NCBI GenBank assembly: GCA_016193585.1
Contig: JACPRW010000003.1
Coordinates: forward strand, 129,649 to 193,648
Length of the DNA: 64,000 nt
DNA from: Candidatus Aenigmatarchaeota archaeon
Lineage (GTDB): Archaea > Aenigmatarchaeota > Aenigmatarchaeia > GW2011-AR5
Direction of reading: 5' to 3'
Shown here: positions 32,733-63,349 of the stretch, one piece after another
How positions within the stretch are numbered: the stretch's first letter is position 1
Layout of the letters: every line of letters starts with the position of its first letter
Notes under the pieces: model-generated
The model's database searches: none
What the model saw: only the letters and a program-made list of their open reading frames with translations
Told to the model about the DNA's origin: nothing
Position numbers and translations under genes: made by a program

Positions 32733-32851
32733 TGGGCGTGACGCGATTCGAACGCGCGACCCCCTGCTGACCTTTTTAGGAAAAAGGTCAATCAAAAACC
32801 TTCTCCCTTCATTAGAAGGCAGATGCTCTATCCAAGCTGAGCTACACGCCC
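32733..32851 (-). tRNA. tRNA-Arg (anticodon UCU) with a 44-nt intron at the canonical 37/38 position.
   Basis: Complete cloverleaf: acceptor gggcgtg / cacgccc, D-arm gctc/gagc, anticodon stem tctgc/gcagg with loop cuUCUaa, T-arm gcgcg-ttcgaat-cgcgt. The intron contains a cctttttcctaaaaagg helix. Confidence 0.8.
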
Positions 32852-42779: not shown

Positions 42780-42810
42780 GCGTACTCTTGAGGCTGCAGG
42801 GATAAAAAGG

Positions 42811-42884
42811 ATGGGACAGGTGCGATTTGAACGCACGACAGCACGGTCTTCAGCCGTGTGCTCTCCCAGGCTGAGCTACTGTCC
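42811..42884 (-). tRNA. tRNA-Phe (anticodon GAA), intron-less.
   Basis: Perfect cloverleaf: gggacag/ctgtccc, gctc/gagc, cacgg-cuGAAga-ccgtg, gtgcg-ttcaaat-cgcac. Confidence 0.9.
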
Positions 42885-42886
42885 CA

Positions 42887-42990
42887 GCGCCTCCGGCAGG
42901 ACTCGAACCTGCGACCACCTGATTAACAGTTTCACCCAACCTTTTATCGCTGAAAGGTTGACAGGTGCTCTACCTGCTGAGCTACAGAGG
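42887..42990 (-). tRNA. tRNA, probably Asn(GUU), 104 nt, with an about 31-nt intron located at the anticodon stem/loop junction (non-canonical position). It lies 2 nt from tRNA-Phe.
   Basis: Acceptor gcctctg/cggaggc, D-arm gctc/gagc, T-arm gcagg-ttcgagt-cctgc. The only 7-nt loop with U33 obtainable by removing one contiguous segment is cuGUUaa. The intron contains an aaccttt...aaaggtt helix. Confidence 0.6.
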
Positions 42991-43018
42991 CTTCGTTTAG
43001 TTTTATTGAGGAAAGCAT

Positions 43019-49832: not shown

Positions 49833-50771
49833 CTATACGATGCCAGTCCGGACAGTTATCAGGAATATCGACACGCCGGTGATGAGAAGTATAGCGCTAT
49901 GCTTCACGCCCGCAGCAATCGAATCCGATCCTATCTGGCCCGCGATGAGGCCGGTAAAGAATCCCTGTACGATAATCATGATGAAGAAAAGCGACTTATA
50001 GTAAGCAGACGGGTCAGTTTTCTCCCCGAAGTCCATGAGCGCAGAAACAGAGAAGAAAGTATTGCAGCCGACGCACGCGCCACTTGCGCTGCTTATGCAT
50101 TCAAAGCAGGGGTTTGAATTGGTCCCTTTGACAAGTCCTATGCCGCTTTCAGACTGCGTCTGGACGAGGGGAATCAGGAATTTGATGAGTGCTATGGTGA
50201 TGCCAAGGAAGATGAAGAAAATGGCGTACATCATGAGCACCTGCTGATTCATGAGCGTGTTTTTTTCCTCCTGAACGTCGCGCAGCATTTCTATGTTGCC
50301 CGCGAGCGACTCCATGGTATCCTCGATATTGCCCCCCGACTTGTTCGATTCAAGTATGACCATCACGGACCGGGAAATTATCCTGCTATTTTTCATCCGT
50401 ACGATAAAGTTGTTGAGGACTTTTTCAAGAGGAACGTTCCAGCTCAGCTGGTTGTCCATTTTTTTTACCTCATGCGTCAGCGAGCCGTAATCCGAGCGCG
50501 CGGCAAGCTGTATGCTCTGGAGGATGCTGAGGCCCGCGCGCTGGGATTCCGCCAGGTCGCGGAGGAAATTGGGGAATTCGCTTTCGAACGCACGCACGCG
50601 TTTGAACTCGAAAAACTTATAGATGCTGTATGGCGCGGTGAGGATGATTATTGCTATGAAAATGAGGTTGGTCGAAAGCGCGAACGATCCGGAGAACGTC
50701 ACGGCAATGCCGATAAGCAGCATGCTTACTACAAAAGAGCCGATAAGAATATTCCGCTCGTTCAGCTCCAT
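49833..50771 (-). CDS. TadC/FlaJ-like polytopic membrane protein (type IV pilus / archaellum platform).
   Basis: GspF/TadC-type domain with paired TM helices. Adjacent to a paralog and the ATPase. Confidence 0.75.
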   Translation of the reverse strand: MELNERNILIGSFVVSMLLIGIAVTFSGSFALSTNLIFIAIIILTAPYSIYKFFEFKRVRAFESEFPNFLRDLAESQRAGLSILQSIQLAARSDYGSLTHEVKKMDNQLSWNVPLEKVLNNFIVRMKNSRIISRSVMVILESNKSGGNIEDTMESLAGNIEMLRDVQEEKNTLMNQQVLMMYAIFFIFLGITIALIKFLIPLVQTQSESGIGLVKGTNSNPCFECISSASGACVGCNTFFSVSALMDFGEKTDPSAYYKSLFFIMIIVQGFFTGLIAGQIGSDSIAAGVKHSAILLITGVSIFLITVRTGIV

Positions 50772-50848
50772 GTTACTTTATTATGCTCCTGCCTATTTTA
50801 GCTTTGTCAGGCAAAGCGCCCCAATCGGCCCAAATCAGCGGGCAGTAG

Positions 50849-51709
50849 CTACTCGAGAGGAGAGATGGATTTGATGATGAGGATAAAGCCTATGGAAAGC
50901 AGCGGAAGGAGGATGAAAACGACGAAGCTCTGGACAAATATCGTTCCGAGCCCCCCCGAAATCGCCGAAATGATGGACGAAAGGACTATGAAAAATATGG
51001 ACCCGGTGATTATGAGTGTCAGGTAAATTTCGACAAAAAGCGAAAGGTCCTGTGAGTACTTCCGTATCCTTCTTCGGTAGTCGTTCATGAGTTCGTCGCC
51101 CTTGTTCTTCAGGTAGATGGTGAGGTCCCCGCCTGAGGAAATGACGGTATTTATTCCCCACAACAGCTCCCTGAATTCAGTCGACGGGGTGCGCTTGGAT
51201 TGCTTCTTGACTGCCTCGGAAAACGTCATGCCGAAGACCTCGACGTCCCTCGCAATGTTCCCCGCTTCCTTGGCGAGTTCGCCGTACTCCTCGAACTGCG
51301 CCAGCGTCTTGAAAAGCACTATCGGCGGGACTTTTGCGCTCGAGATGGTCGAGAGGTACGAAACTGAAAAGGGCAGCATCTTCTTGATTTTGCTTTCCCT
51401 CGTCTTTGCCTTGGTGGCGGGATAAGAATAGAAGAGGAAAAAAATGAGGCCCGATAGTGCCAGAGAAAGCGTCAGCCCAAGGACGATGGCTATGACAGGC
51501 GGCGCCAACAAGCCGAAAATAAACGAAAGTCCTATCGTCTCGAGGAAGAATGTCCAGGCGGTCGTGAAAACGGCAGTGGCCAGCCATTCTTCAAGCGTAT
51601 AATTGAGGTTGGCACGATGAAGATCGTCGCGTATGTCAAGAAAATACGGTTTGATGAGTTTCACGATGTCCTCGAAAAGCCTGTACGACAGATTGACGTA
51701 ACTTATCAT
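50849..51709 (-). CDS. TadB/FlaJ-like polytopic membrane protein (second platform gene).
   Basis: Paralogous to 49833-50771. Overlaps the ATPase gene by 4 nt. Confidence 0.75.
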   Translation of the reverse strand: MISYVNLSYRLFEDIVKLIKPYFLDIRDDLHRANLNYTLEEWLATAVFTTAWTFFLETIGLSFIFGLLAPPVIAIVLGLTLSLALSGLIFFLFYSYPATKAKTRESKIKKMLPFSVSYLSTISSAKVPPIVLFKTLAQFEEYGELAKEAGNIARDVEVFGMTFSEAVKKQSKRTPSTEFRELLWGINTVISSGGDLTIYLKNKGDELMNDYRRRIRKYSQDLSLFVEIYLTLIITGSIFFIVLSSIISAISGGLGTIFVQSFVVFILLPLLSIGFILIIKSISPLE

Positions 51710-53517
51710 ATGGCTTCGATCCTTCCAAGCAGGTAATCAGGGGAGGTGTAGAAGAGATTTATCACAGATGCAATCTTCCGGTAATCGGTGATGTTGTTGA
51801 GAACCGTCCATTCAAGCACCTTTGCGCGCTTTTTGAGCTCCTCCTGGACGGCATAGTCGTCAAGCCCGCTCGCCTCGGCTATCTTCCTCAAAAGCACGCT
51901 TTTGTTCGTGTTCTTGTACACGTCCATCTTCGGGTCCCAAGAAAAGACCTCGTCGACGATAGGCGCGTTGAGCTTGTCGTTAAAGCCTATGACCTCGACC
52001 GAGCTGTTCACGCGTCGCAGGTATTTTTTCCCCTGTTTTATCCTCTTCAGGAATATAATCACGTCGAGGTTCTGCATCAGGTTTGGCGGCAGGCTTATGG
52101 GAGGCGACGTGAGCCTGTCGACGAGTTTCGGGAAATTTTCGGCGTGGATGGTGGAGAGGCCGGGATGGCCGACGGCCATCTGCTGGAAAAGCACATACGC
52201 TTCCTTACCACGAACCTCGCCGACGATGATGTAGTCAGGCCGCTGCCTGAGCGATTCCCTCAGAAGCTCGAACATGTCAACCTTGCCCTCCTCTGCTATC
52301 GGGGTCCGTGCCACCTCCGGCACCCAGTGCGAGTGCGGGAGCCTTAGTTCTGCGGTATCCTCTATCGAAATGATTTTCATCTGCGGCTTGATGAAGAGGG
52401 ACAGCACATTGAGTAATGACGTCTTCCCCGTTGCTGTGCCGCCGGAGATGAGGAACGAGGAGCCGTGCTCAATGAGCATCCAGTAATACGCCATCATGCG
52501 GATGTCGCAGGTCCCGAACTTGACGATGTCAAGGGGAGTCAGCGGCTTGTCGGTGAACATCCTGATGGTGTAATTGGACCCGCGCCGCGCTATGTCACTC
52601 CCAAGCGTTGCCTGGACACGCGAGCCGTCGGGGAGAGTGCCGTCAAGGAGCGGCTTTGAGATGGATATTGTCCTGCCGCACCGCTCGGCAATCTTATTCA
52701 CGAAAGAATCGAGCTCGTCGCCGTTGGTGAAGACGACGTTCGTCCGCAGCGACCCGAGGCGCGGATCACGGTGGTACACGTAAATGTTTATGTTCACGCC
52801 GTCACACGAAATATCCTCGATGCGATTGTCGTTCAGTATAGGCTCTATCTTTTCGAGGCCGACGAAATCCCTGAATATGTAGTACCGAAGGATTTCCCGT
52901 TTCTCGTCGTCGAAACGTGAGTGGAAATAATCAAGTGCCTTCTCAAAAACGGCGGCGATGTAGTTTATTGCGTCCCTCTTTCGTACATGGGAAAAATTTA
53001 TGTCGACTTTTTCCTGGATGTACTCCTTTATCTCATGGACGAGCATCTTCATGCGCGCGTCAAGCGGCGGCTCGACAACATCGTATACAACCTGGTTCGT
53101 GGACTGGTCGTAGTGGATATACGCGTACGCAAAAATTCGCTCCCCCTCCTTCGGATTTTGCGGTATAAGCGGATAGGTAATGCTTATGTTCCTCAGCTCA
53201 AGCAGCTCCTTCGTCACCGCCTCAAGGTCCTTTGTTTTGAGCCTCTCCACTTCGGTTTCTATCGGCGGCACCTTGATGCCAGTTGCGATTTTAATTTGAG
53301 TCTCCTCATGGCCACTGCTCTCCTTCTGTGCGCCGCCGGAAAATCCTGTTCCTTGGGCAATGACATTGCCGCCGATGGGCATCGAGGCCGCTATATAGCC
53401 TGTTGTTATGCCGTCTGCCTTCGGCTTCGGATTGAATTTGAACCGTATCTTCTTTGTTCCGGTGTTCGTAGCCAGGCGTACGATGAGGTATTTTTCCTTT
53501 GCCTGTAGCTCTGCCAT
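51706..53517 (-). CDS. FlaI/TadA/VirB11-family secretion ATPase, with an about 130-aa N-terminal extension.
   Basis: Walker A GGTATGKTS, Asp and His boxes typical of type II/IV secretion ATPases. Confidence 0.9.
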   Translation of the reverse strand: MAELQAKEKYLIVRLATNTGTKKIRFKFNPKPKADGITTGYIAASMPIGGNVIAQGTGFSGGAQKESSGHEETQIKIATGIKVPPIETEVERLKTKDLEAVTKELLELRNISITYPLIPQNPKEGERIFAYAYIHYDQSTNQVVYDVVEPPLDARMKMLVHEIKEYIQEKVDINFSHVRKRDAINYIAAVFEKALDYFHSRFDDEKREILRYYIFRDFVGLEKIEPILNDNRIEDISCDGVNINIYVYHRDPRLGSLRTNVVFTNGDELDSFVNKIAERCGRTISISKPLLDGTLPDGSRVQATLGSDIARRGSNYTIRMFTDKPLTPLDIVKFGTCDIRMMAYYWMLIEHGSSFLISGGTATGKTSLLNVLSLFIKPQMKIISIEDTAELRLPHSHWVPEVARTPIAEEGKVDMFELLRESLRQRPDYIIVGEVRGKEAYVLFQQMAVGHPGLSTIHAENFPKLVDRLTSPPISLPPNLMQNLDVIIFLKRIKQGKKYLRRVNSSVEVIGFNDKLNAPIVDEVFSWDPKMDVYKNTNKSVLLRKIAEASGLDDYAVQEELKKRAKVLEWTVLNNITDYRKIASVINLFYTSPDYLLGRIEAI

Positions 53518-57069: not shown

Positions 57070-57939
57070 TTACCGTTTCTTGAGCAGGCGGCGGATGTCC
57101 CCGGCTGACTGCATCGACCTGATATCCTTTTCCTGGATGCTCGGCAGGTCGAAATCCGCTTCTTCCTTCGTTACGAGAAGCACGGGGCGTTCGGTGATTT
57201 CGGAGAAGCCGGCCATGTTGCTGGCGTCAGCGTCTTCTCTGCGCTCTTCCGCATCCGCGAAGACCATGAAGCGCTCGCTCGCTATGATGTTGAACGGCGA
57301 CTGGTGGACGGATTGCGTCTCGAAGCCGAGCCGCCGCAAATCTGCGATAACAAGCCGCTCGAAAGCGCCTTTCGGATTGGCGGTGGCGCCTGCCTCAAAT
57401 TCAAGTGTCACCGCATCGGTGATGTCGCCGAGCACTTTCTCCAGCCGCTGCACGATGTCGTACGACGCCTTCATGGTTTTGTGTTCGTGCTCGTAGACGC
57501 TCTTCCTGGTGATGCCGACTCTTGCTGCAAGCTCCTGCTGCGTGAGCCCTGCTTCGGTCCGCTTCTGGCGCAGGCGTTCTGCGCTGATCGTGGCAAAGAG
57601 ACCTCCCCTGAAACGGTAGAGCTTCGGGAACGCTGACTGGACGATATGCTCGAACGTTCGCACGGTCATCGACGGCACGGAGAACCGTTCATATATAATA
57701 TTGTCTTCCATAGCTTCCCGGCGCGTATGCGAGCCGACAAGGAACGCGCTCGCATCGAGGCTGCCAGAGAGGATTTTGAGGTTGTTCGCCTGCTCTTCCT
57801 GGAATGAGTCGATATTCCCGAGAATCTTGAGGAAGAGCGTCTGCTCGCGGCGCGCGACGATGTCGAAGCACCCGCGGTACTCAGCGTAGGCGAAGCGATG
57901 GTCCTCGAGGACGCGCCCCACTTGTGTTTTGATGTCCAT
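57070..57939 (-). CDS. Archaeal transcription regulator with an XRE-type HTH (LTQQELAARVGITRKSVYEHE) embedded in a larger conserved protein.
   Basis: HTH motif plus the domain layout of a widespread archaeal putative-regulator family. Confidence 0.7.
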   Translation of the reverse strand: MDIKTQVGRVLEDHRFAYAEYRGCFDIVARREQTLFLKILGNIDSFQEEQANNLKILSGSLDASAFLVGSHTRREAMEDNIIYERFSVPSMTVRTFEHIVQSAFPKLYRFRGGLFATISAERLRQKRTEAGLTQQELAARVGITRKSVYEHEHKTMKASYDIVQRLEKVLGDITDAVTLEFEAGATANPKGAFERLVIADLRRLGFETQSVHQSPFNIIASERFMVFADAEERREDADASNMAGFSEITERPVLLVTKEEADFDLPSIQEKDIRSMQSAGDIRRLLKKR

Positions 57940-57995
57940 AAAATCCTTTTAGCTGAACAAAGTATATAAGATTTCCAGGGAGAAAGCATCAGAAA

Positions 57996-58139
57996 GGGCC
58001 GGTAGCTCAGTGGTAGAGCACCAGTCTTATATGACAGCCTGGTTTAAGCAGGAACAAGCCCGGCTATCGTGGTTAACTGGCGACATGTTCCGCATCGCGG
58101 AGATGCCAGAAGTCGTGAGTTCGATCCTCATCCGGCCCA
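57996..58139 (+). tRNA. tRNA gene spanning 144 nt, with about 68 nt of intervening sequence that is probably two introns. Anticodon tentatively UAU (Ile) if the first intron is at 37/38.
   Basis: Canonical 5' part (gggccgg-ta-gctc-agtggta-gagc-a) and 3' part (gtgag-ttcgatc-ctcat-ccggccc-a). Anticodon stem ccagt pairs with actgg 44 nt downstream. A further about 29 nt separates the stem from the variable loop. Confidence 0.65.
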
Positions 58140-58177: not shown

Positions 58178-58522
58178 TCACGGAGGGCACCCGCAGGCCT
58201 GTTTGCAGTCGCTGGCACTTGTACCTTCCCCTGCATGCCTGGCCCAGCCGAACTTCAGTTCGCATGCCCGTGCAAGTGTATTTCCATCAGTCCCGTCACT
58301 GTCAGGGTCAAAGTTCGCTAGTGTTATGCCGCTCGGCGCTGTACCACACTTGTGAATATAGAACAGCTGGTTGCACCCGTCAGAAAACGCCTTTTCGACG
58401 GTAAGTGTATTCGAGCCTTTAGACAAATTACTGGAGAACAGGAAGCCGATTGTGGCGAACACAAGAACGGCCAGCAGCAGTATGACGGTTGTTTCTATCG
58501 ATAGGGAGATGCCCTTTGCCAT
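58178..58522 (-). CDS. Small pilin-like protein with a class III signal peptide (KG|ISLSIETTVILLLAV) and a Cys-containing globular domain.
   Basis: N-terminal motif shared with the two Cys-rich paralogs downstream (x-x-L-x-x-E-T). Confidence 0.55.
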   Translation of the reverse strand: MAKGISLSIETTVILLLAVLVFATIGFLFSSNLSKGSNTLTVEKAFSDGCNQLFYIHKCGTAPSGITLANFDPDSDGTDGNTLARACELKFGWARHAGEGTSASDCKQACGCPP

Positions 58523-58567
58523 GCAGTACGTATGGCATTCTGGATTTATAAAGAAGAGGAGAAGGCG

Positions 58568-58882
58568 CTACTTCTTCAGCACGACTTCGATGGTCGAGAC
58601 GTTGAGCTTTTCCTTGTTCTCATTCTCTATTTGTTCAGTGCCTATCCTGATAGCAGCGACTTTCGCGTCCTGCACGAACTTGTTCCGCACGATTTCCGCC
58701 ACGTTGACAGCGGTGGAAATCGCGTTGCCCCGCGCCTTCAGGTGGACCTCGTTCTGGCCTTCGCTGAACTGCGTCACGACTGCAAGAACATATGACATGC
58801 TTGGCTTCTTGCCCACGAAGACCACGTTGTCGCCTGCCCTTTCTGCCATTTGTGTCATCCCTGCTGTTTCTATTCGTAGCAA
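58568..58882 (-). CDS. albA: Chromatin protein Alba.
   Basis: Alba family full-length match ([20 protein letters not shown]...[14 protein letters not shown]). Confidence 0.9.
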
Positions 58883-59065
58883 TTACTGAATTTCCTGAAC
58901 GCCATTATAGGGGGCGGCAAAGTTCTTAAGGATTAGGGACACGGTATCCATGATTCGCAGCCGCCTGTGCTATCGCAGTTGCAATAGACCGACGAACACG
59001 CAGTGCACTGATCCTGGTAGCATGCTACATCTTGAATCGACATGAGAGTAAAAGAAAAGTTTTAA

Positions 59066-59545
59066 TCACCTGCAGCATTTGTAGGTGCTATCGAGTGGAG
59101 GTTTTTGACAGTCAGGAGTGCCTTGCGTCAGCTCCCCGCCTGGACATGACTTTCCGCAGCTGGTACCGCCGAGATCCTCTCTGCATCTGGGCATGCCGTT
59201 GCACTGGTCGCCGCAGCACTGCCAGATGCACTGCTGGCTTGCTGCCTGGCCGGTGGTGCAGCCCGGGTAGCCGCCTTCGCGCTGCTTGAGGCCGCCGCAT
59301 GCGTTCGCTATGCGGAGCCTGATGTCGTTGAGGTCGCTACGTTCGGTGCAGCCGGGCTCGTGCTGCGTATACGCGCTGCAGGCGGTTACCTTTTCCCGGG
59401 TGAGGCGCACCGTGTCGCCGAACGGGTTGGCGTTGCCCGTGAACACGAAGGCAAGAGAAGCGAGAACAATAAGGGCAAGAACAACGAGAACGATGGTCTC
59501 AACAGACAGCGCGACGCCTTTACGTTTCACATCTATTTGCAGCAT
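59066..59545 (-). CDS. Cysteine-rich pilin-like protein (class III signal KRKG|VALSVETIVLVV; about 15 Cys in a roughly 110-aa ectodomain).
   Basis: Signal motif plus a conserved Cys spacing shared with 59533-60066. Confidence 0.55.
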   Translation of the reverse strand: MLQIDVKRKGVALSVETIVLVVLALIVLASLAFVFTGNANPFGDTVRLTREKVTACSAYTQHEPGCTERSDLNDIRLRIANACGGLKQREGGYPGCTTGQAASQQCIWQCCGDQCNGMPRCREDLGGTSCGKSCPGGELTQGTPDCQKPPLDSTYKCCR

Positions 59546-60066
59546 TTGTAACCCCCCGTTGTCGACGATGTCTGGCACGACGGGCTGCTCGATTGTATTT
59601 CACGCTTGCCCGCAGGGCAGTTTGCCTCGCACGTGCCGCCGATTTCCCGGCAGCTTGCCGTTCCCCTGCAGTAGGTGCTGCAGCACTGCCACACGCACGC
59701 CAGTGATGCAGTGCCGGTGCAGTCCGAATAGCCTCCCTCAAGTGCGCGGAGCGCCTTGCAGGCAACTGCCACACGGTTGCGCGCGTCATTGACCTCACTG
59801 GTGCTCGCAGGGCTGCCCAAGTCAATGCTGCATTCCGGGTCCTTCTGCGTATACGCGCTGCAGGCGATCGCCCGTTCACGCTCCTTGGCAACTTTGTCGC
59901 CAGCCGGTGGCACGTTGCCCGAAAACAGGAAGAGCAGCGCGGCGAGGACGATGATGGCGAGCACCATGAACGTCATCGTCTCGAGCGGCAGTGCCGCGCC
60001 CTTAAAGGACGAGGGCCCGGGTTCTCTTCGACATCTACTGATTACCATAGCACGCATCAGATTCAC
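59533..60066 (-). CDS. Cysteine-rich pilin-like protein, paralog (class III signal FKG|AALPLETMTFMV).
   Basis: Aligns with 59066-59545 (ACSAYTQ..P.C ... EGGY..CT ... WQCC ... CRE.GGT.C ... YKCC). Confidence 0.55.
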   Translation of the reverse strand: MNLMRAMVISRCRREPGPSSFKGAALPLETMTFMVLAIIVLAALLFLFSGNVPPAGDKVAKERERAIACSAYTQKDPECSIDLGSPASTSEVNDARNRVAVACKALRALEGGYSDCTGTASLACVWQCCSTYCRGTASCREIGGTCEANCPAGKREIQSSSPSCQTSSTTGGYKCCK

Positions 60067-60088
60067 TTTGTCGTACCTCCATAAATAA

Positions 60089-63000
60089 TTATGCGCAGCC
60101 GCCTCCTTGTAGAGGCCCGCAGTACGTGTTTGAATCGCATGCGCCGTTGCTGCAGCAGTTCATGTGCACGCCAGCAGGGCAACCGGGGTCTGTGCAGTCC
60201 TGCGAGCACCAGTCGTTATAGGTGCAGCCCTCAGGACCAGTACAGCCGCCAGATGGCGGTGGAGGCGGCGGCGGGGTGGATGACCTGCAGGTGCTGCCAG
60301 AGCAGCCATTGCTGCAGTCTCTAACTTTTTCAGATTGTGGCGTGGAATCTTGGTAACACCCGCCTCGTGGATCAGAGCAGCCTATTGTATAACACGTTCT
60401 GTCGTGCCAGATATTGCCGTCCGCGGCATTGCAGTACTCAGAGCCCCATGGAGCGCAGCCGCTTATGAGCCCGGGACAGTTTTGAACAGTGCATACCGAG
60501 CTGCATACTGCCGACGTTGTCGCGCATTTCCCCGGCTCTATGCCGTCGCAGAGCGCATCAGCGCCGCACTGCGAGGCGCACGCGCCTCCATGGTACGCCT
60601 GCGCAAGGGCAGCATCGCTTGTGGGGTCAATGCCGTTTGCGCAGGATTGCGGCGCATCCTGCCTGCACTCCCATTTCCTCTTTGTCGGAGCGTCACAGTA
60701 AAACGAGCAGCCGCTGTTTTTTGCGTCGTCCCTGGTTGGCGTGCCGCTGCATTCCTTCCGGTAATCGCAAATCTCGTTCCGGTCCTTGTCCGTATACGCG
60801 TCGCCGAAGCAGTACGTCCTGCTGTTGCACGTGTTCGTTCCGCCGCGCCATGTCGGGGCAGGCGTGTCCGGCCAGTTCCATTTCTCGCAGCACTGCTTGC
60901 CCAGCGCCTCCCGCGGATTGATGCCGTCGTCATGCTCCTTGCAGAATATCGGGTTGCACGGTGGCGTGTCACATGCAGTGACGCACTGGAAGTCGCCGAG
61001 ATTGGTGTCCTGCTGCTTCTTGTAGGTGTCCTCCATACCAGGAATGGCACGCTCAGCGCTCGGTGACTGGCATGCATAGAACTTCCCGCCGACGCACACC
61101 GTATCCTTCTCGGTCAGCCAGCTGAACTGCTCGCTCGTATACTCCCTACAGTCAAGCACGCCAAGGTAATCCTTCACGCTGACGTCGAGCTGGAACGGCT
61201 GCTTGACAAACCTGCTGTTCGCTTCATCGTGATAATAGTAGCCCGGTCCGCTGGCTGCTGCTGGCGGCGGCGGAGGCGGCATGCCACCCGAAGAGCAGAG
61301 CCCCAGCGTGATTTCCGGATTTGCGACGGGCTGTTTTGACTGACCGCTCTTCTGGACTTGGACCTGGATGTGCACATGACCTTTGCCGCAGTTTGGTGCA
61401 GTGCTGGGGCAATCAATATTCGGATACAATCTGCCTGCAACGGCCCCGGACCAGGCTCTTGCGTTCTCTCTTCCTGACGAGAAATCACCCTCGTTCCTGA
61501 GGTGCGTCAGGTAGATTTCGTAGGTGTCCGTTCCTGCAGTTGTCCTGAACGTCTTGCCGTAGCCGAGGCCGCTGGCGCCGCCTTCTATCTGCACGAACGT
61601 CCATTCGACGGCATTCCCCTTTATGGTCGGCAGATAGACCTCGTAATTGTCAGTGCCGCCAGGGCCCTGAACGTCAATGCCGGTTACGGTTCTCGGGAAT
61701 TGCGTGCACCAGCTCGGCAGCGGCGTTCCATAGCCTTTGCCGCAATGCTCGCACGTCGCATGGCCAGAATTGAGCGAGCCGCAGCTGATGGTCGGGCTCT
61801 GCATCGGGCACGACATTCCCGAAGCAATGCTTTGAAGATACGTGTAACAGCCGTACACCTTGTCGGCGTACGCGCTGTCATGATTATAGCACCACGCCTG
61901 ATTCCATGCGACAGGACGCGCCGGGTCGCGCACGCTCGTCGCGCACGCCTTGAGGTAGGCTGCAGCAGCGGTCACCGAATCGGCTAACGTCTGGATGTCT
62001 GCGGTGCCGTCGCCGTTTCCATCCCTTCCGTAGCCTCCGGCTTGCTGGATGCGGTTCGGATTGGTATCAACAGGATAGGTCTGCTGGTTGCTCGACACGC
62101 AGTTGTAACCTTGCAGCACCGGGTTCGTGCTCCCGCTCCATGTGCACGGCATGAACTGGAACGGACCCTTCGCGCCTTTCGGCGAAGTGCCCCACGGTCC
62201 GTCAGGGTTCGGCCACGGCCGGCTGAACTCTTCGGCAGCATTGTCTGTTTTGCACGATGATGTCGGGCATGCATTCCCTGCATGCTCGCCGCACTTGAAG
62301 ATTGCTGCAATGAGCGCAGCAGGCGTCCCTTCCTGGTTCGACGCTGTCACGAAGATGGTATTGTAGGGCGCAGGAATGCCGGTGATGCTCCCCCCGCCGC
62401 TGCCTGGCGGCGTTGATGTCCCGCTCCCGTCTCTGAATGTTCCGGTGAGGTCGTATGCGAGCACCAGCCCTGCCTGGGGCGGCAGTATGCCGCTCTCGGT
62501 TGTCGGAACTTTCACGTGCAGGGCATTGATGACGAACGCCGAGGTGATGCTGTCCGTCTGCAGCCAGCTCTTGATTTCGTTTGCTTTCGAGAGCAGGTGC
62601 GTCTCTTTCTGGGTGCGGTACGTTTCATGAGTCATGGCATTGTTGATATCACCCGGCGACGCAGGATAATCATGCAGCCTGCCTGCGGCTGTACTGGAGA
62701 ACTCGGTTGCAACGCCGACGAGCCGCCAGCCCCCTGCGACGAGCTTCTTGAAAGGGGTGAAGATGACGTTGTCGTTCCGCGTTTCTGCATCAACGTGCGT
62801 ACCCAGATAGCTCGCCTGCAGGCGCTGCGTGACCAATGCAGTAACGCGGTCATAGGCAGGCCAGAAATTATTCGGCCTTGCGTCAAGCCGTATGCCGGTT
62901 ATGCCGAGCCGCACGTCGTTGACAGCCGGGTCGGACGGTATGGACAGATACCCTTGCATGATGCCGAGCAGGTAGTCGGAAACATGCTTGTTCTGCGGCA

Positions 63001-63349
63001 GGCATATTTTCGGGTTTGCAGTATCGGCGTTACACTTCCCCGCCTCCGGGACGATGATGCGCTTCTGTTCGGTCGGGTCGGTGAGGTACCAGTACCGCTC
63101 TCCGACACCCGTATAACCTGTCTTGAATATCGTCTGTATGGTGGACACGTACCACGTCATGCCGAGCGAGCGATTGGCAAGGTAGAACGTGTTTTTCGCC
63201 CGCAGCAAACCTGCTTCCTCGATGTTGATTTTGTACGTCTTGATGTTCGTTCCGAAGACTGCTATGCCGAAGATGAGGCCTATCAGTACGATGCTGATGC
63301 CGTAGAACAGGAGCTGGGCCGATGGGCCGCCGAATCCCTTAGCCGCCAA
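60089..63349 (-). CDS. Giant (1086 aa) membrane-anchored, Cys-rich extracellular protein with a lytic transglycosylase (SLT/lysozyme-like) domain and poly-Pro linkers.
   Basis: N-terminal TM anchor. A central segment AAEEFSRPW...SPKGAKGPFQFMPCTW...CYNHDSAY matches SLT motifs I-III (ES-x-F, S-x-x-GA-x-GLMQ-x-MP-x-T, AYN). The C-terminal 350 aa contain more than 60 Cys and PPPPPPP linkers. Confidence 0.65.
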   Translation of the reverse strand: MAAKGFGGPSAQLLFYGISIVLIGLIFGIAVFGTNIKTYKINIEEAGLLRAKNTFYLANRSLGMTWYVSTIQTIFKTGYTGVGERYWYLTDPTEQKRIIVPEAGKCNADTANPKICLPQNKHVSDYLLGIMQGYLSIPSDPAVNDVRLGITGIRLDARPNNFWPAYDRVTALVTQRLQASYLGTHVDAETRNDNVIFTPFKKLVAGGWRLVGVATEFSSTAAGRLHDYPASPGDINNAMTHETYRTQKETHLLSKANEIKSWLQTDSITSAFVINALHVKVPTTESGILPPQAGLVLAYDLTGTFRDGSGTSTPPGSGGGSITGIPAPYNTIFVTASNQEGTPAALIAAIFKCGEHAGNACPTSSCKTDNAAEEFSRPWPNPDGPWGTSPKGAKGPFQFMPCTWSGSTNPVLQGYNCVSSNQQTYPVDTNPNRIQQAGGYGRDGNGDGTADIQTLADSVTAAAAYLKACATSVRDPARPVAWNQAWCYNHDSAYADKVYGCYTYLQSIASGMSCPMQSPTISCGSLNSGHATCEHCGKGYGTPLPSWCTQFPRTVTGIDVQGPGGTDNYEVYLPTIKGNAVEWTFVQIEGGASGLGYGKTFRTTAGTDTYEIYLTHLRNEGDFSSGRENARAWSGAVAGRLYPNIDCPSTAPNCGKGHVHIQVQVQKSGQSKQPVANPEITLGLCSSGGMPPPPPPAAASGPGYYYHDEANSRFVKQPFQLDVSVKDYLGVLDCREYTSEQFSWLTEKDTVCVGGKFYACQSPSAERAIPGMEDTYKKQQDTNLGDFQCVTACDTPPCNPIFCKEHDDGINPREALGKQCCEKWNWPDTPAPTWRGGTNTCNSRTYCFGDAYTDKDRNEICDYRKECSGTPTRDDAKNSGCSFYCDAPTKRKWECRQDAPQSCANGIDPTSDAALAQAYHGGACASQCGADALCDGIEPGKCATTSAVCSSVCTVQNCPGLISGCAPWGSEYCNAADGNIWHDRTCYTIGCSDPRGGCYQDSTPQSEKVRDCSNGCSGSTCRSSTPPPPPPPSGGCTGPEGCTYNDWCSQDCTDPGCPAGVHMNCCSNGACDSNTYCGPLQGGGCA

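What the first reader, a model, noticed from the sequence alone, without database searches (positions are those of the whole stretch)
57996..58139. tRNA gene interrupted by about 68 nt, probably two introns
The 5' part (acceptor, D-arm, position 26, anticodon 5' stem ccagt) and the 3' part (T-arm gtgag-ttcgatc-ctcat, acceptor ccggccc, discriminator A) are canonical. The partner of the anticodon stem (actgg) is 44 nt downstream, and a further 29 nt sit between the stem and the variable loop. Double-intron tRNAs with non-canonical positions are known in only a few archaeal lineages. They require a splicing endonuclease with relaxed bulge-helix-bulge recognition.
Basis: partly seen in the sequence, partly recalled or inferred. 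Interest (0 to 1): 0.6.

Follow-up and report, generated by a model that had tools for sequence, protein, structure and literature searches.

The report
Two-intron isoleucine tRNA gene, DPANN archaeon
This is a real gene for an isoleucine tRNA (anticodon UAU) in a tiny uncultured archaeon (Aenigmarchaeota), interrupted by two protein-spliced introns at positions already known from other archaea, so it is a well-supported but ordinary example of a known phenomenon.

Summary
Window 57996-58139 (+) is a full-length tRNA gene (Rfam tRNA, 49.8 bits against a threshold of 29) with two insertions totalling 72 nt. Removing them gives a canonical 72-nt tRNA-Ile(UAU).

Intron 1 is 43 nt (58032-58074) at the canonical 37/38 site. 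Intron 2 is 29 nt (58083-58111) at 45/46. There a perfect 4-bp helix (CUGG/CCAG) is flanked by two 3-nt bulges, which is the bulge-helix-bulge (BHB) core.

The neighbouring gene places the window in a divergent Aenigmarchaeota (DPANN) genome. Syntenic orthologues elsewhere carry the same 37/38 intron. The closest one (L138) also has an intron at 45/46 with the same BHB core and a different interior. Another (L221) has an uninterrupted variable loop, CGGTC, exactly the predicted spliced product. Other relatives carry their second intron at 53/54, at 59/60 or in the D loop.

The positions 45/46, 53/54 and 59/60, multi-intron tRNAs in DPANN, and intron-containing tRNA-Ile(UAU) are all described in the literature.

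One oddity: the central helix of intron 1 is degenerate here, 2 of 4 pairs against 4 of 4 in most relatives.

Splicing itself and the endonuclease type are untested.

The parts
57963..57969 (+). TATA-box-like element (TATATAA), 27-33 nt upstream of the mature 5' end, preceded by a purine-rich stretch. Putative archaeal promoter in the divergent intergenic region shared with the HTH regulator gene.
   Evidence: Read directly from the sequence. Relatives L219, L220 and L221 also have A/T-rich TATA-like elements about 30-35 nt upstream. Inferred, not tested.
57996..58139 (+). Complete precursor gene for tRNA-Ile(UAU), 144 nt. CCA is not encoded.
   Evidence: Rfam RF00005, 49.8 bits, model 1-71. 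Identical in six assemblies.
57996..58031 (+). Exon 1 (tRNA positions 1-37): acceptor 5' strand, D arm, anticodon stem 5' strand CCAGU, loop CUUAUA. The anticodon TAT is at 58028-58030.
58032..58074 (+). Intron 1, 43 nt, at the canonical position 37/38. Relaxed BHB. Outer helix is the anticodon stem (5 bp). Central helix is 58026-58029 (CUUA) with 58069-58072 (GUGG), only 2 of 4 pairs. Bulges are 58030-58032 (UAU) and 58073-58075 (UUA). Inner helix is 58033-58042 with 58059-58068.
   Evidence: The register was validated on 57 distinct relatives: outer helix 100% paired, central helix 93% paired, against 28-42% when the partner is slid. The intron is orthologous in the syntenic loci L007, L009, L011, L138 and L200.
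58075..58082 (+). Exon 2 (positions 38-45): A38, anticodon stem 3' strand ACUGG, C44, G45.
   Evidence: The L221 orthologue has the same bases joined directly to GTC, giving variable loop CGGTC.
58083..58111 (+). Intron 2, 29 nt, at the non-canonical position 45/46. BHB core: central helix 58077-58080 (CUGG, tRNA positions 40-43) with 58106-58109 (CCAG), 4 of 4 Watson-Crick. 5' bulge 58081-58083 (CGA). 3' bulge 58110-58112 (AAG). Inner helix 58084-58086 (CAU) with 58103-58105 (AUG). The outer helix has only 1 bp, so the motif is of the HBh' type.
   Evidence: An unbiased scan of all registers picks 45/46 in the window, L138 and L137. Shuffle control. Rfam shows the same insertion in L138 and L137.
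58112..58139 (+). Exon 3 (positions 46-73): G46 U47 C48, T arm GUGAG-UUCGAUC-CUCAU, acceptor 3' strand CCGGCCC, discriminator A73.

Best explanation
This is a functional gene for tRNA-Ile(UAU), the decoder of AUA, in a divergent Aenigmarchaeota (DPANN) archaeon. It is interrupted by two archaeal protein-spliced (bulge-helix-bulge, BHB) introns: 43 nt at the canonical 37/38 site and 29 nt at the known non-canonical 45/46 site.

Proposed mechanism. The 144-nt precursor is transcribed from the upstream TATA-like element. The splicing endonuclease (EndA) cuts between the 2nd and 3rd base of each 3-nt bulge. An RtcB-type ligase joins the three exons into a 72-nt tRNA with anticodon loop CUUAUAA and variable loop CGGUC. 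CCA is added afterwards.

The central helix of the intron-2 motif is built from tRNA positions 40-43, the 3' strand of the anticodon stem, paired with the intron's own CCAG. That stem also serves as the outer helix of the intron-1 motif. The two motifs therefore cannot form at once, and the introns must be removed stepwise through alternative folds.

Shown here: the gene, the exon and intron boundaries that give a canonical cloverleaf, the BHB geometry, and its conservation in relatives. Inferred: transcription, cleavage, ligation, order of removal, and the need for a broad-specificity EndA.
For: Gene: full-length Rfam tRNA hit with two insertions. ARAGORN calls the spliced 72-mer tRNA-Ile(tat).

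Intron 2: a scan of all registers finds a 4/4 Watson-Crick central helix with two 3-nt bulges only at 45/46. This is rare in shuffles, 38-131 of 20000.

Closest relative: L138 has a neighbouring HTH protein 55.6% identical and in synteny. Its exons are nearly identical. It has both introns at the same sites, the same CUGG/CCAG helix, the same CGA bulge and the same first two inner-helix pairs, but an unrelated intron interior that still forms a hairpin. L137 has a third 45/46 intron with a 6-bp GC inner helix.

Spliced product: orthologue L221 has the same anticodon arm and an uninterrupted variable loop CGGTC, exactly as predicted.

Intron 1: the 37/38 BHB register is supported across 57 distinct relatives, with covariation in the outer helix and a 93% paired central helix.

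Context: the tRNA lies divergently upstream of the same HTH regulator gene in L007, L009, L011 and L012. The regulator is 100% identical to a protein named 'Candidatus Aenigmarchaeota archaeon'. The same window holds tRNA-Asn(GUU) with a strict BHB intron at 30/31, so non-canonical splicing is needed in this genome anyway. The identical gene appears in six assemblies.

Literature: 45/46, 53/54 and 59/60 are listed non-canonical positions (PMC4090602). DPANN lineages are rich in disrupted tRNAs (PMC5829648). ARMAN tRNA-Ile(UAU) has a 37/38 intron that its EndA cleaves in vitro (PMC3239211).
Against: There is no RNA-level evidence for transcription or splicing. The central helix of intron 1 has only 2 of 4 pairs (C-G, U.G, then U.U and A.G); 58 of 73 relatives have 4/4, 13 have 3/4 and only 2 have 2/4, so this motif is the weakest in the family. 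Neither BHB conformer is the minimum-free-energy fold: -51.6 and -49.3 against -56.0 kcal/mol. The outer helix of intron 2 is a single pair. No EndA, RtcB or TiaS gene lies in the 64-kb window, so the enzyme's specificity is unknown. Only three sequences carry the 45/46 intron, too few for a formal covariation test.
Confidence: 0.87

Rival explanations
1. The gene is a decaying or poorly spliced copy (incipient pseudogene). The introns are real in origin, but the degenerate BHB of intron 1 means little or no mature tRNA is made here.
For: The central helix of intron 1 has 2 of 4 pairs, the lowest class among 73 relatives. The BHB conformers lie 4-7 kcal/mol above the minimum-free-energy fold. 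No clear oligo-T terminator follows the gene.
Against: All four tRNA stems and the conserved tertiary positions (U8, A14, G15-C48, G18G19, G53-C61, T loop UUCGAUC) are intact. The exons are nearly identical to L138, although the neighbouring protein is only 56% identical. Both flanking helices of intron 1 are intact. The closest relatives already have 3/4 central helices, which suggests the lineage's enzyme tolerates mismatches. No other AUA decoder is present in the window.
Confidence: 0.06
2. The 29-nt insertion is not removed. It stays in the tRNA as an unusually long variable arm, making a class-II-like tRNA.
For: The 34 nt between the anticodon and T stems can form a local hairpin in the minimum-free-energy fold. 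V-arm tRNAs with non-Leu/Ser anticodons exist in nematodes (PMC3333845, title and abstract seen).
Against: The conserved pairing is between the insertion's 3' end (CCAG) and the anticodon stem's 3' strand (CUGG), with 3-nt bulges on both sides. That is BHB geometry, not a self-contained variable-arm stem. Orthologues L007, L009, L200, L203 and L221 have ordinary 5-nt variable loops, and L221's is exactly the predicted spliced CGGTC. The interior of the insertion is not conserved between the window, L138 and L137.
Confidence: 0.04
3. There is a single long intron and a different anticodon stem, as in ARAGORN's intron-mode call: 'tRNA-Leu(gag)' with a 71-nt intron at 33/34.
For: ARAGORN -i returns this fold for the 144-nt sequence.
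Against: The proposed anticodon stem has only 3 of 5 pairs (A.A and U.C mismatches). A Leu tRNA should have a long variable arm, and this fold has a 5-nt loop. No 4/4 BHB exists at those cut sites. L138 and L137 share the architecture but differ in the bases that would form this anticodon loop. The perfect CCAGU/ACUGG stem and the loop CUUAUA-A would go unused, although they are conserved in every orthologue.
Confidence: 0.01

Closest known systems
ARMAN-2 (Micrarchaeota, DPANN) pre-tRNA-Ile(UAU) with a 25-nt intron at 37/38 (Fujishima et al. 2011, PMC3239211)
   Same: Same isoacceptor (UAU, used by lineages that lack TiaS and tRNA-Ile(CAU)). Same DPANN setting. Intron at 37/38 in an hBHBh' motif. 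Shown to be cleaved in vitro by the organism's EndA.
   Different: The ARMAN gene has one intron with a strict motif. Here the 37/38 motif has a degenerate central helix (2 of 4 pairs), and there is a second intron at 45/46. The endonuclease type of this organism is unknown.
Multi-intron tRNA genes of Crenarchaeota/Thermoproteales, with non-canonical sites including 45/46 (Sugahara et al. 2007, 2008; Marck and Grosjean 2003; reviewed in PMC4090602)
   Same: A canonical 37/38 intron combined with a BHB-type intron at a listed non-canonical position (45/46). Relaxed HBh'-like motif. The cloverleaf must refold to present the motif.
   Different: A different phylum (Aenigmarchaeota, DPANN). Those organisms use (alpha-beta)2 EndA with the Crenarchaea-specific loop. 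No sequence relationship between the introns was tested.
Methanopyrus kandleri pre-tRNA-Glu(UUC) with a canonical intron plus a D-loop HBh' intron (Kaneta et al. 2018, PMC5829648)
   Same: Two introns, one strict or canonical and one relaxed or non-canonical. Stepwise removal, with the canonical intron cut first in vitro.
   Different: The second intron is in the D loop, not the variable loop. That case has been tested biochemically, and this one has not.
Eukaryotic tRNA-Ile(UAU) introns: yeast Pus1 forms pseudouridine 34/36 in an intron-dependent way, and the Cyanidioschyzon merolae tRNA-Ile(UAU) gene has three introns (PMC9602550)
   Same: Same isoacceptor, carrying a 37/38 intron. In C. merolae there are additional BHB-like introns in other arms.
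   Different: Eukaryotic nuclear genes and enzymes. No evidence here that the archaeal intron is needed for anticodon modification. 6 of 21 archaeal tRNA-Ile(UAU) genes found in the unbiased scan have no intron.

Membership tests
tRNA (Rfam RF00005) | Full-length match to the covariance model above the gathering score | tested here: met
   49.8 bits against a gathering score of 29, model 1-71, E = 1.2e-7 over the window.
tRNA (Rfam RF00005) | After removal of the insertions, a canonical cloverleaf with the conserved tertiary positions and a 7-nt anticodon loop | tested here: met
   ARAGORN calls the 72-mer tRNA-Ile(tat). All stems are paired. U8, A14, G15/C48, G18G19, G53-C61 and the T loop UUCGAUC are present.
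tRNA-Ile(UAU) isoacceptor of DPANN archaea | UAU anticodon on an Ile-type body (A73, A37, A38), with orthologues in related genomes | tested here: met
   Anticodon TAT at 58028-58030. Syntenic orthologues lie next to the same HTH gene in 7 or more related loci. UAU tRNAs occur in Nano-, Woese-, Pace-, Aenigmat-, Micr- and Iainarchaeota genomes. Aminoacylation identity was not tested.
tRNA-Ile(UAU) isoacceptor of DPANN archaea | The genome lacks TiaS and tRNA-Ile(CAU) | not testable with these tools
   Only 64 kb of the genome is available. No TiaS-like Pfam hit among about 50 ORFs in the window, which says nothing about the rest of the genome.
Archaeal BHB (bulge-helix-bulge) tRNA intron | Two 3-nt bulges on opposite strands, separated by a 4-bp helix, placed so that cleavage yields a correct tRNA | tested here: met
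   Intron 2: CUGG/CCAG, 4 of 4 Watson-Crick, bulges CGA and AAG, register 45/46, and the only 4/4 register in the scan.
Archaeal BHB (bulge-helix-bulge) tRNA intron | The same core for intron 1 at 37/38 | tested here: inconclusive
   The register is fixed by 57 relatives. In the window the central helix is CUUA/GUGG, 2 of 4 pairs. Both bulges and both flanking helices are present. This fits a relaxed motif, not a strict one.
Archaeal BHB (bulge-helix-bulge) tRNA intron | Flanking helices h and h' (strict hBHBh') as opposed to the relaxed forms (HBh', hBH) | tested here: not met
   Intron 2 has an inner helix of 3 bp but an outer helix of only 1 bp (A39-U47), so it is of the relaxed HBh' type. 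This fails the strict form only. Relaxed forms are accepted members of the class (PMC5829648).
Archaeal BHB (bulge-helix-bulge) tRNA intron | The motif is conserved in orthologues while the intron interior varies | tested here: met
   L138 has the same central helix, the same 5' bulge and the same first inner-helix pairs, with a different interior. L137 has a 3/4 central helix and a 6-bp GC inner helix.
Archaeal BHB (bulge-helix-bulge) tRNA intron | Excision by EndA and ligation, so that the mature RNA lacks the intron | not testable with these tools
   No transcript data and no enzyme assay. The uninterrupted CGGTC loop in orthologue L221 is indirect support.
Archaeal BHB (bulge-helix-bulge) tRNA intron | The host encodes an EndA able to cut relaxed or non-canonical motifs ((alpha-beta)2, epsilon2, or alpha4 with the L3 loop) | not testable with these tools
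   No tRNA_int_endo domain among the ORFs of the window.
Class II tRNA with a long variable arm | A self-paired variable-arm stem-loop retained in the mature tRNA, on a Leu or Ser (or Tyr) body | tested here: not met
   The anticodon is UAU on an Ile-type body. Orthologues have 5-nt variable loops. The conserved pairing is with the anticodon stem strand, not within the insertion.
tRNA pseudogene | Broken stems or lost conserved positions, and no conservation across species | tested here: not met
   The stems are intact. The gene and both intron sites are conserved in L138, although the neighbouring protein is only 56% identical.

The most novel reading that the evidence does not exclude
In Aenigmarchaeota and other DPANN archaea, the tRNA-Ile(UAU) gene may be a hotspot of repeated, lineage-specific intron gain around an anciently retained 37/38 intron. 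The extra introns seen here lie at 45/46, at 53/54, at 59/60 and in the D loop (172 nt). The retained intron may be kept because it pairs with the anticodon and is needed for an intron-dependent modification of U34/U36 that prevents AUG misreading, as yeast Pus1 does on tRNA-Ile(UAU). Because the 45/46 motif and the anticodon stem exclude each other, splicing (and perhaps modification) would follow an obligatory order.
Probability: 0.15. Interest if true: 0.5.

Novelty: new member of a known kind. Interest (0 to 1): 0.25.

Why it matters
It matters mainly for annotation. Default tRNA finders miss this gene: ARAGORN found 2 of the 5 tRNA genes in the window, against 5 of 5 for the Rfam model. 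The genome would therefore look as if it had no decoder for AUA codons. Such gaps are one reason DPANN genomes appear to have incomplete tRNA sets.

The locus also adds Aenigmarchaeota to the lineages with multi-intron tRNAs. It gives a compact comparative series: the same gene with a second intron at 45/46, at 53/54, at 59/60, in the D loop, or absent. That series could be used to study how BHB introns are gained and lost, and how far the splicing endonuclease tolerates a decayed central helix.

It does not reveal a new mechanism.

Tried and rejected
1. An exact 30-mer of the 5' exon in the species-representative genome collection gave 0 hits. The species is not represented there, so a looser pattern was used.
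2. ARAGORN in default mode found nothing at the locus.
3. ARAGORN in intron mode gave a single-intron 'tRNA-Leu(gag)' with a 3/5 anticodon stem. Rejected; see the rival explanations.
4. RNAalifold on a MAFFT alignment of the anticodon arm plus intron 1 from 16 relatives returned only a trivial GUC/GAC hairpin, because the variable interiors misalign. It was replaced by an alignment anchored at both splice sites and explicit pair counting.
5. An enumeration of BHB-like motifs that allowed G.U pairs anywhere in the 144 nt gave 39 candidates. The motif alone is therefore not specific, and the requirement that the product be a tRNA is what discriminates.
6. Alternative registers for intron 2 (43/44, 44/45) give 1 of 4 and 0 of 4 central-helix pairs.
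7. A slipped register for intron 1 gives four pairs, but would leave an 8-nt anticodon loop. Rejected by reasoning.
8. A Pfam scan of about 50 ORFs in the window for EndA, RtcB or TiaS found none.
9. An Rfam search at a permissive E-value around the locus, looking for any RNA family inside the introns, found nothing credible: only a 10.8-bit lncRNA hit on the opposite strand. No C/D-box motifs were seen by eye.
10. A literature search for Aenigmarchaeota tRNA introns found no specific description in the held library. PMC12397907 contains none of the search terms (Aenigm, DPANN, multiple introns, non-canonical).

Full report
OBSERVATION

The sequence at 57996-58139 (+) reads GGGCCGG-UA-GCUC-AGUGGUA-GAGC-A-CCAGU-CUUAUA-[43 nt]-A-ACUGG-CG-[29 nt]-GUC-GUGAG-UUCGAUC-CUCAU-CCGGCCC-A. 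The Rfam tRNA model matches exactly these coordinates over its full length at 49.8 bits. The gathering score is 29, and E = 1.2e-7 for the 64-kb window. The alignment opens two insertions, one in the anticodon loop and one between the anticodon stem and the T stem. ARAGORN in its default mode does not report the gene.

The total insertion is 72 nt rather than about 68.

WHAT THE MATURE MOLECULE WOULD BE

Cutting after A37 (58031) and before A38 (58075) removes the first insertion. Cutting after G45 (58082) and before G46 (58112) removes the second. The result is a 72-nt sequence that ARAGORN calls tRNA-Ile(tat), with every stem paired. The anticodon loop is CUUAUAA and the variable loop is CGGUC.

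Other cut positions inside the anticodon loop that preserve a 7-nt loop would put a pyrimidine at position 37, or would change the anticodon while leaving U37. This follows from reading the sequence. The UAU anticodon with A37 is therefore the only canonical product.

PLACING THE SPLICE SITES

Archaeal tRNA introns are recognised through the bulge-helix-bulge (BHB) motif. Two 3-nt bulges are separated by a 4-bp helix, and cleavage falls between the second and third bulge base (established knowledge; PMC5829648, PMC4090602).

I first fixed the register empirically on relatives. I used 57 distinct tRNA-Ile(UAU) genes with 37/38 introns, aligned from both splice sites inward.
- The outer helix (the anticodon stem) is 100% paired and covaries.
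- The central helix (positions 32-35 against the four bases that precede the last two intron bases) is 93.4% paired.
- The first inner-helix pair is always paired.
- Sliding the 3' partner by one to three columns drops overall pairing from 80% to 28-42%.

I then applied the same register to the second insertion, trying every position from the anticodon stem to the acceptor stem. Only 45/46 gives a perfect central helix:
- C40-G, U41-A, G42-C, G43-C (58077-58080 with 58106-58109);
- bulges CGA and AAG;
- a 3-bp inner helix.

Placing the intron at 43/44 or 44/45 gives 1 and 0 central pairs. I shuffled the 34 nt between the stems and allowed six registers. A motif this good arose in 131 of 20000 shuffles, or 38 of 20000 with Watson-Crick pairs only.

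ORGANISM

The gene immediately upstream on the other strand (57070-57939) encodes an HTH/PDDEXK regulator. It is 100% identical to an NCBI protein from 'Candidatus Aenigmarchaeota archaeon'. All other homologues are 56% identical or less, and the named ones are nearly all from Aenigmarchaeota. The rest of the window is archaeal housekeeping: thermosome, Alba, topoisomerase VI, FtsZ, aminoacyl-tRNA synthetases and type-IV-pilus-like genes. The window therefore comes from a divergent DPANN archaeon.

COMPARATIVE EVIDENCE

The tRNA sits divergently upstream of the same regulator gene in related contigs.
- L007 and L009 have one intron, 43 nt at 37/38, clearly homologous to intron 1 here, and a normal variable loop GGGUC.
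- L011, L012 and L170 add a 24-nt intron at 53/54, with central helix CGUG/CACG, 4 of 4.
- L138 is the closest relative, with a regulator 55.6% identical. Its exons are nearly identical to the window's, and both introns lie at the same sites. Its intron 2 keeps CUGG/CCAG, the CGA bulge and the first two inner-helix pairs. The interior is unrelated and still forms a hairpin. Rfam scores it at 50.1 bits with the same two insertions.
- L137 carries a third 45/46 intron, with a 3/4 central helix and a 6-bp GC inner helix.
- L221 has the same anticodon arm (CCAGU...ACUGG) and an uninterrupted variable loop CGGTC, exactly the product predicted for the window.
- More distant DPANN genes carry second introns at 59/60.

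The identical 144-nt gene is found in six independent assemblies, so it is not an assembly artefact.

MECHANISM

Shown: the gene, the boundaries and the motifs. Inferred: transcription from the TATA-like element at 57963-57969; cleavage by EndA at four sites; ligation by an RtcB-type ligase; addition of CCA.

The central helix of the intron-2 motif necessarily uses positions 40-43, the 3' strand of the anticodon stem. That stem is also the outer helix of the intron-1 motif, so the two motifs are mutually exclusive folds. The minimum-free-energy fold is -56.0 kcal/mol. The fold presenting the intron-2 motif is -51.6, and the fold presenting the intron-1 motif is -49.3. With intron 1 removed, the intron-2 conformer lies 2.7 kcal/mol above the minimum. 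Removal must therefore be stepwise. The order is unknown. For M. kandleri pre-tRNA-Glu the canonical intron went first in vitro (PMC5829648).

WHAT IS UNUSUAL

The central helix of intron 1 is CUUA/GUGG: C-G, U.G, U.U, A.G. Among 73 relatives, 58 have 4/4 (typically UAAG), 13 have 3/4 (these include the window's closest relatives, with UUGG or UUAG), and only 2 have 2/4. Both flanking helices are intact, so the junction is a relaxed motif.

Intron 2 lacks an outer helix (1 bp) and is of the HBh' type. According to the literature, relaxed motifs need an (alpha-beta)2 or epsilon2 EndA, or an EndA with lineage-specific insertions (PMC5829648, PMC3239211). No EndA gene lies in the window, so this could not be checked.

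The same window also holds tRNA-Asn(GUU) with a strict BHB intron at 30/31. Non-canonical splicing is therefore required in this genome in any case.

RIVAL READINGS

- ARAGORN's intron mode proposes one 71-nt intron and 'tRNA-Leu(gag)'. Its anticodon stem has two mismatches, there is no long variable arm, there is no BHB at its junctions, and the relatives do not conserve its anticodon loop.
- A retained long variable arm is contradicted by the 5-nt variable loops of the orthologues, and by the fact that the conserved pairing is with the anticodon stem strand.
- A pseudogene is contradicted by intact stems and cross-species conservation. A poorly spliced, decaying copy cannot be fully excluded without RNA data.

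COMPARISON WITH WHAT IS KNOWN

- Non-canonical positions 45/46, 53/54 and 59/60, and combinations with a canonical intron, are listed in the review PMC4090602.
- DPANN lineages with increased tRNA gene disruption are described in PMC5829648.
- tRNA-Ile(UAU) with a 37/38 intron, in lineages lacking TiaS, is described for ARMAN in PMC3239211 and for Korarchaeum in PMC6000648, which also lists the UAU gene in Nanoarchaeum.
- My scan shows UAU tRNAs widely in DPANN archaea and CPR bacteria.
- I found no paper in the held library that describes tRNA introns specifically in Aenigmarchaeota.

The finding is a new member of a known kind.

VERDICT

Interest is low to moderate. The value lies in annotation and in the comparative series of second-intron positions at one orthologous locus.

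Noticed in passing
window 42888-42991 (-), next to 42809-42886 (-): This is tRNA-Asn(GUU) with a 31-nt intron at the non-canonical position 30/31. It has a strict BHB: central helix 4 of 4 Watson-Crick, inner helix 8 bp. ARAGORN missed it. It lies 2 nt upstream of an uninterrupted tRNA-Phe(GAA), so the two are probably co-transcribed.
   Followed up: partly
window 32733-32851 (-): This is tRNA-Arg(UCU) with a 44-nt intron in the anticodon loop, also missed by ARAGORN. In the canonical 37/38 register the central helix has 3 of 4 pairs. A 4/4 register exists one base upstream, but it would leave a 6-nt anticodon loop. The exact 5' cut is therefore ambiguous from sequence alone.
   Followed up: partly
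L221 847-1500 (-) and L219 1-148 (-): In two relatives, the orthologous tRNA-Ile(UAU) gene has a large insertion in the D loop after AGCUCAG(U), in addition to the 37/38 intron. It is 172 nt in L221 and is cut off by the contig end in L219. Only a central-helix match (GCUC/GGGG) is visible at 15/16, with no flanking helices. The first ~55 nt of the insertion is an oligo-T/oligo-A hairpin followed by CCCCAAAAGAAAA. This element recurs just downstream of the tRNA's 3' end. It could be a terminator-like or mobile element, or a hint of separately transcribed halves.
   Followed up: partly
L009 1202-1297 (+) versus L012 1184-1292 (+); L137 529-583 (-): A tRNA with anticodon CAC (Val) near the same locus has a 25-nt insertion in the D loop in L009, but an anticodon-loop intron in L012. 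In L137 only model positions 9-63 of a similar tRNA match, so its acceptor stem may be displaced by further introns. Intron positions shift between close relatives for this gene too.
   Followed up: no
L039 and L056 (genome contigs): Two short contigs binned as 'uncultured Methanosarcinales archaeon' carry a DPANN-type tRNA-Ile(UAU) with a 42-43-nt intron. It is nearly identical in design to genes on unbinned groundwater and sediment metagenome contigs (for example L190, L183). This may be a binning error.
   Followed up: no
Genome-contig scan, L013-L132: A loose pattern for tRNAs with anticodon UAU returned at least 120 species. They are mostly CPR/Patescibacteria bacteria and DPANN archaea, plus several Streptomyces, Gammaproteobacteria MAGs and Fimbriiglobus. 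15 of the 21 archaeal genes carry a 37/38 intron. The 6 without one are the Iainarchaeum genes and some unclassified archaea.
   Followed up: partly
window 58178-63349 (-) and 49833-53517 (-): Just downstream of the tRNA lie three small proteins with class-III signal-peptide-like (pilin-like) N termini and cysteine-rich C-terminal parts (114, 170 and 177 aa). A 1086-aa cysteine-rich protein follows. None has a Pfam match. A type-IV-pilus-like ATPase and two T2SSF membrane proteins lie nearby. This may be a surface or attachment apparatus of this DPANN cell.
   Followed up: no
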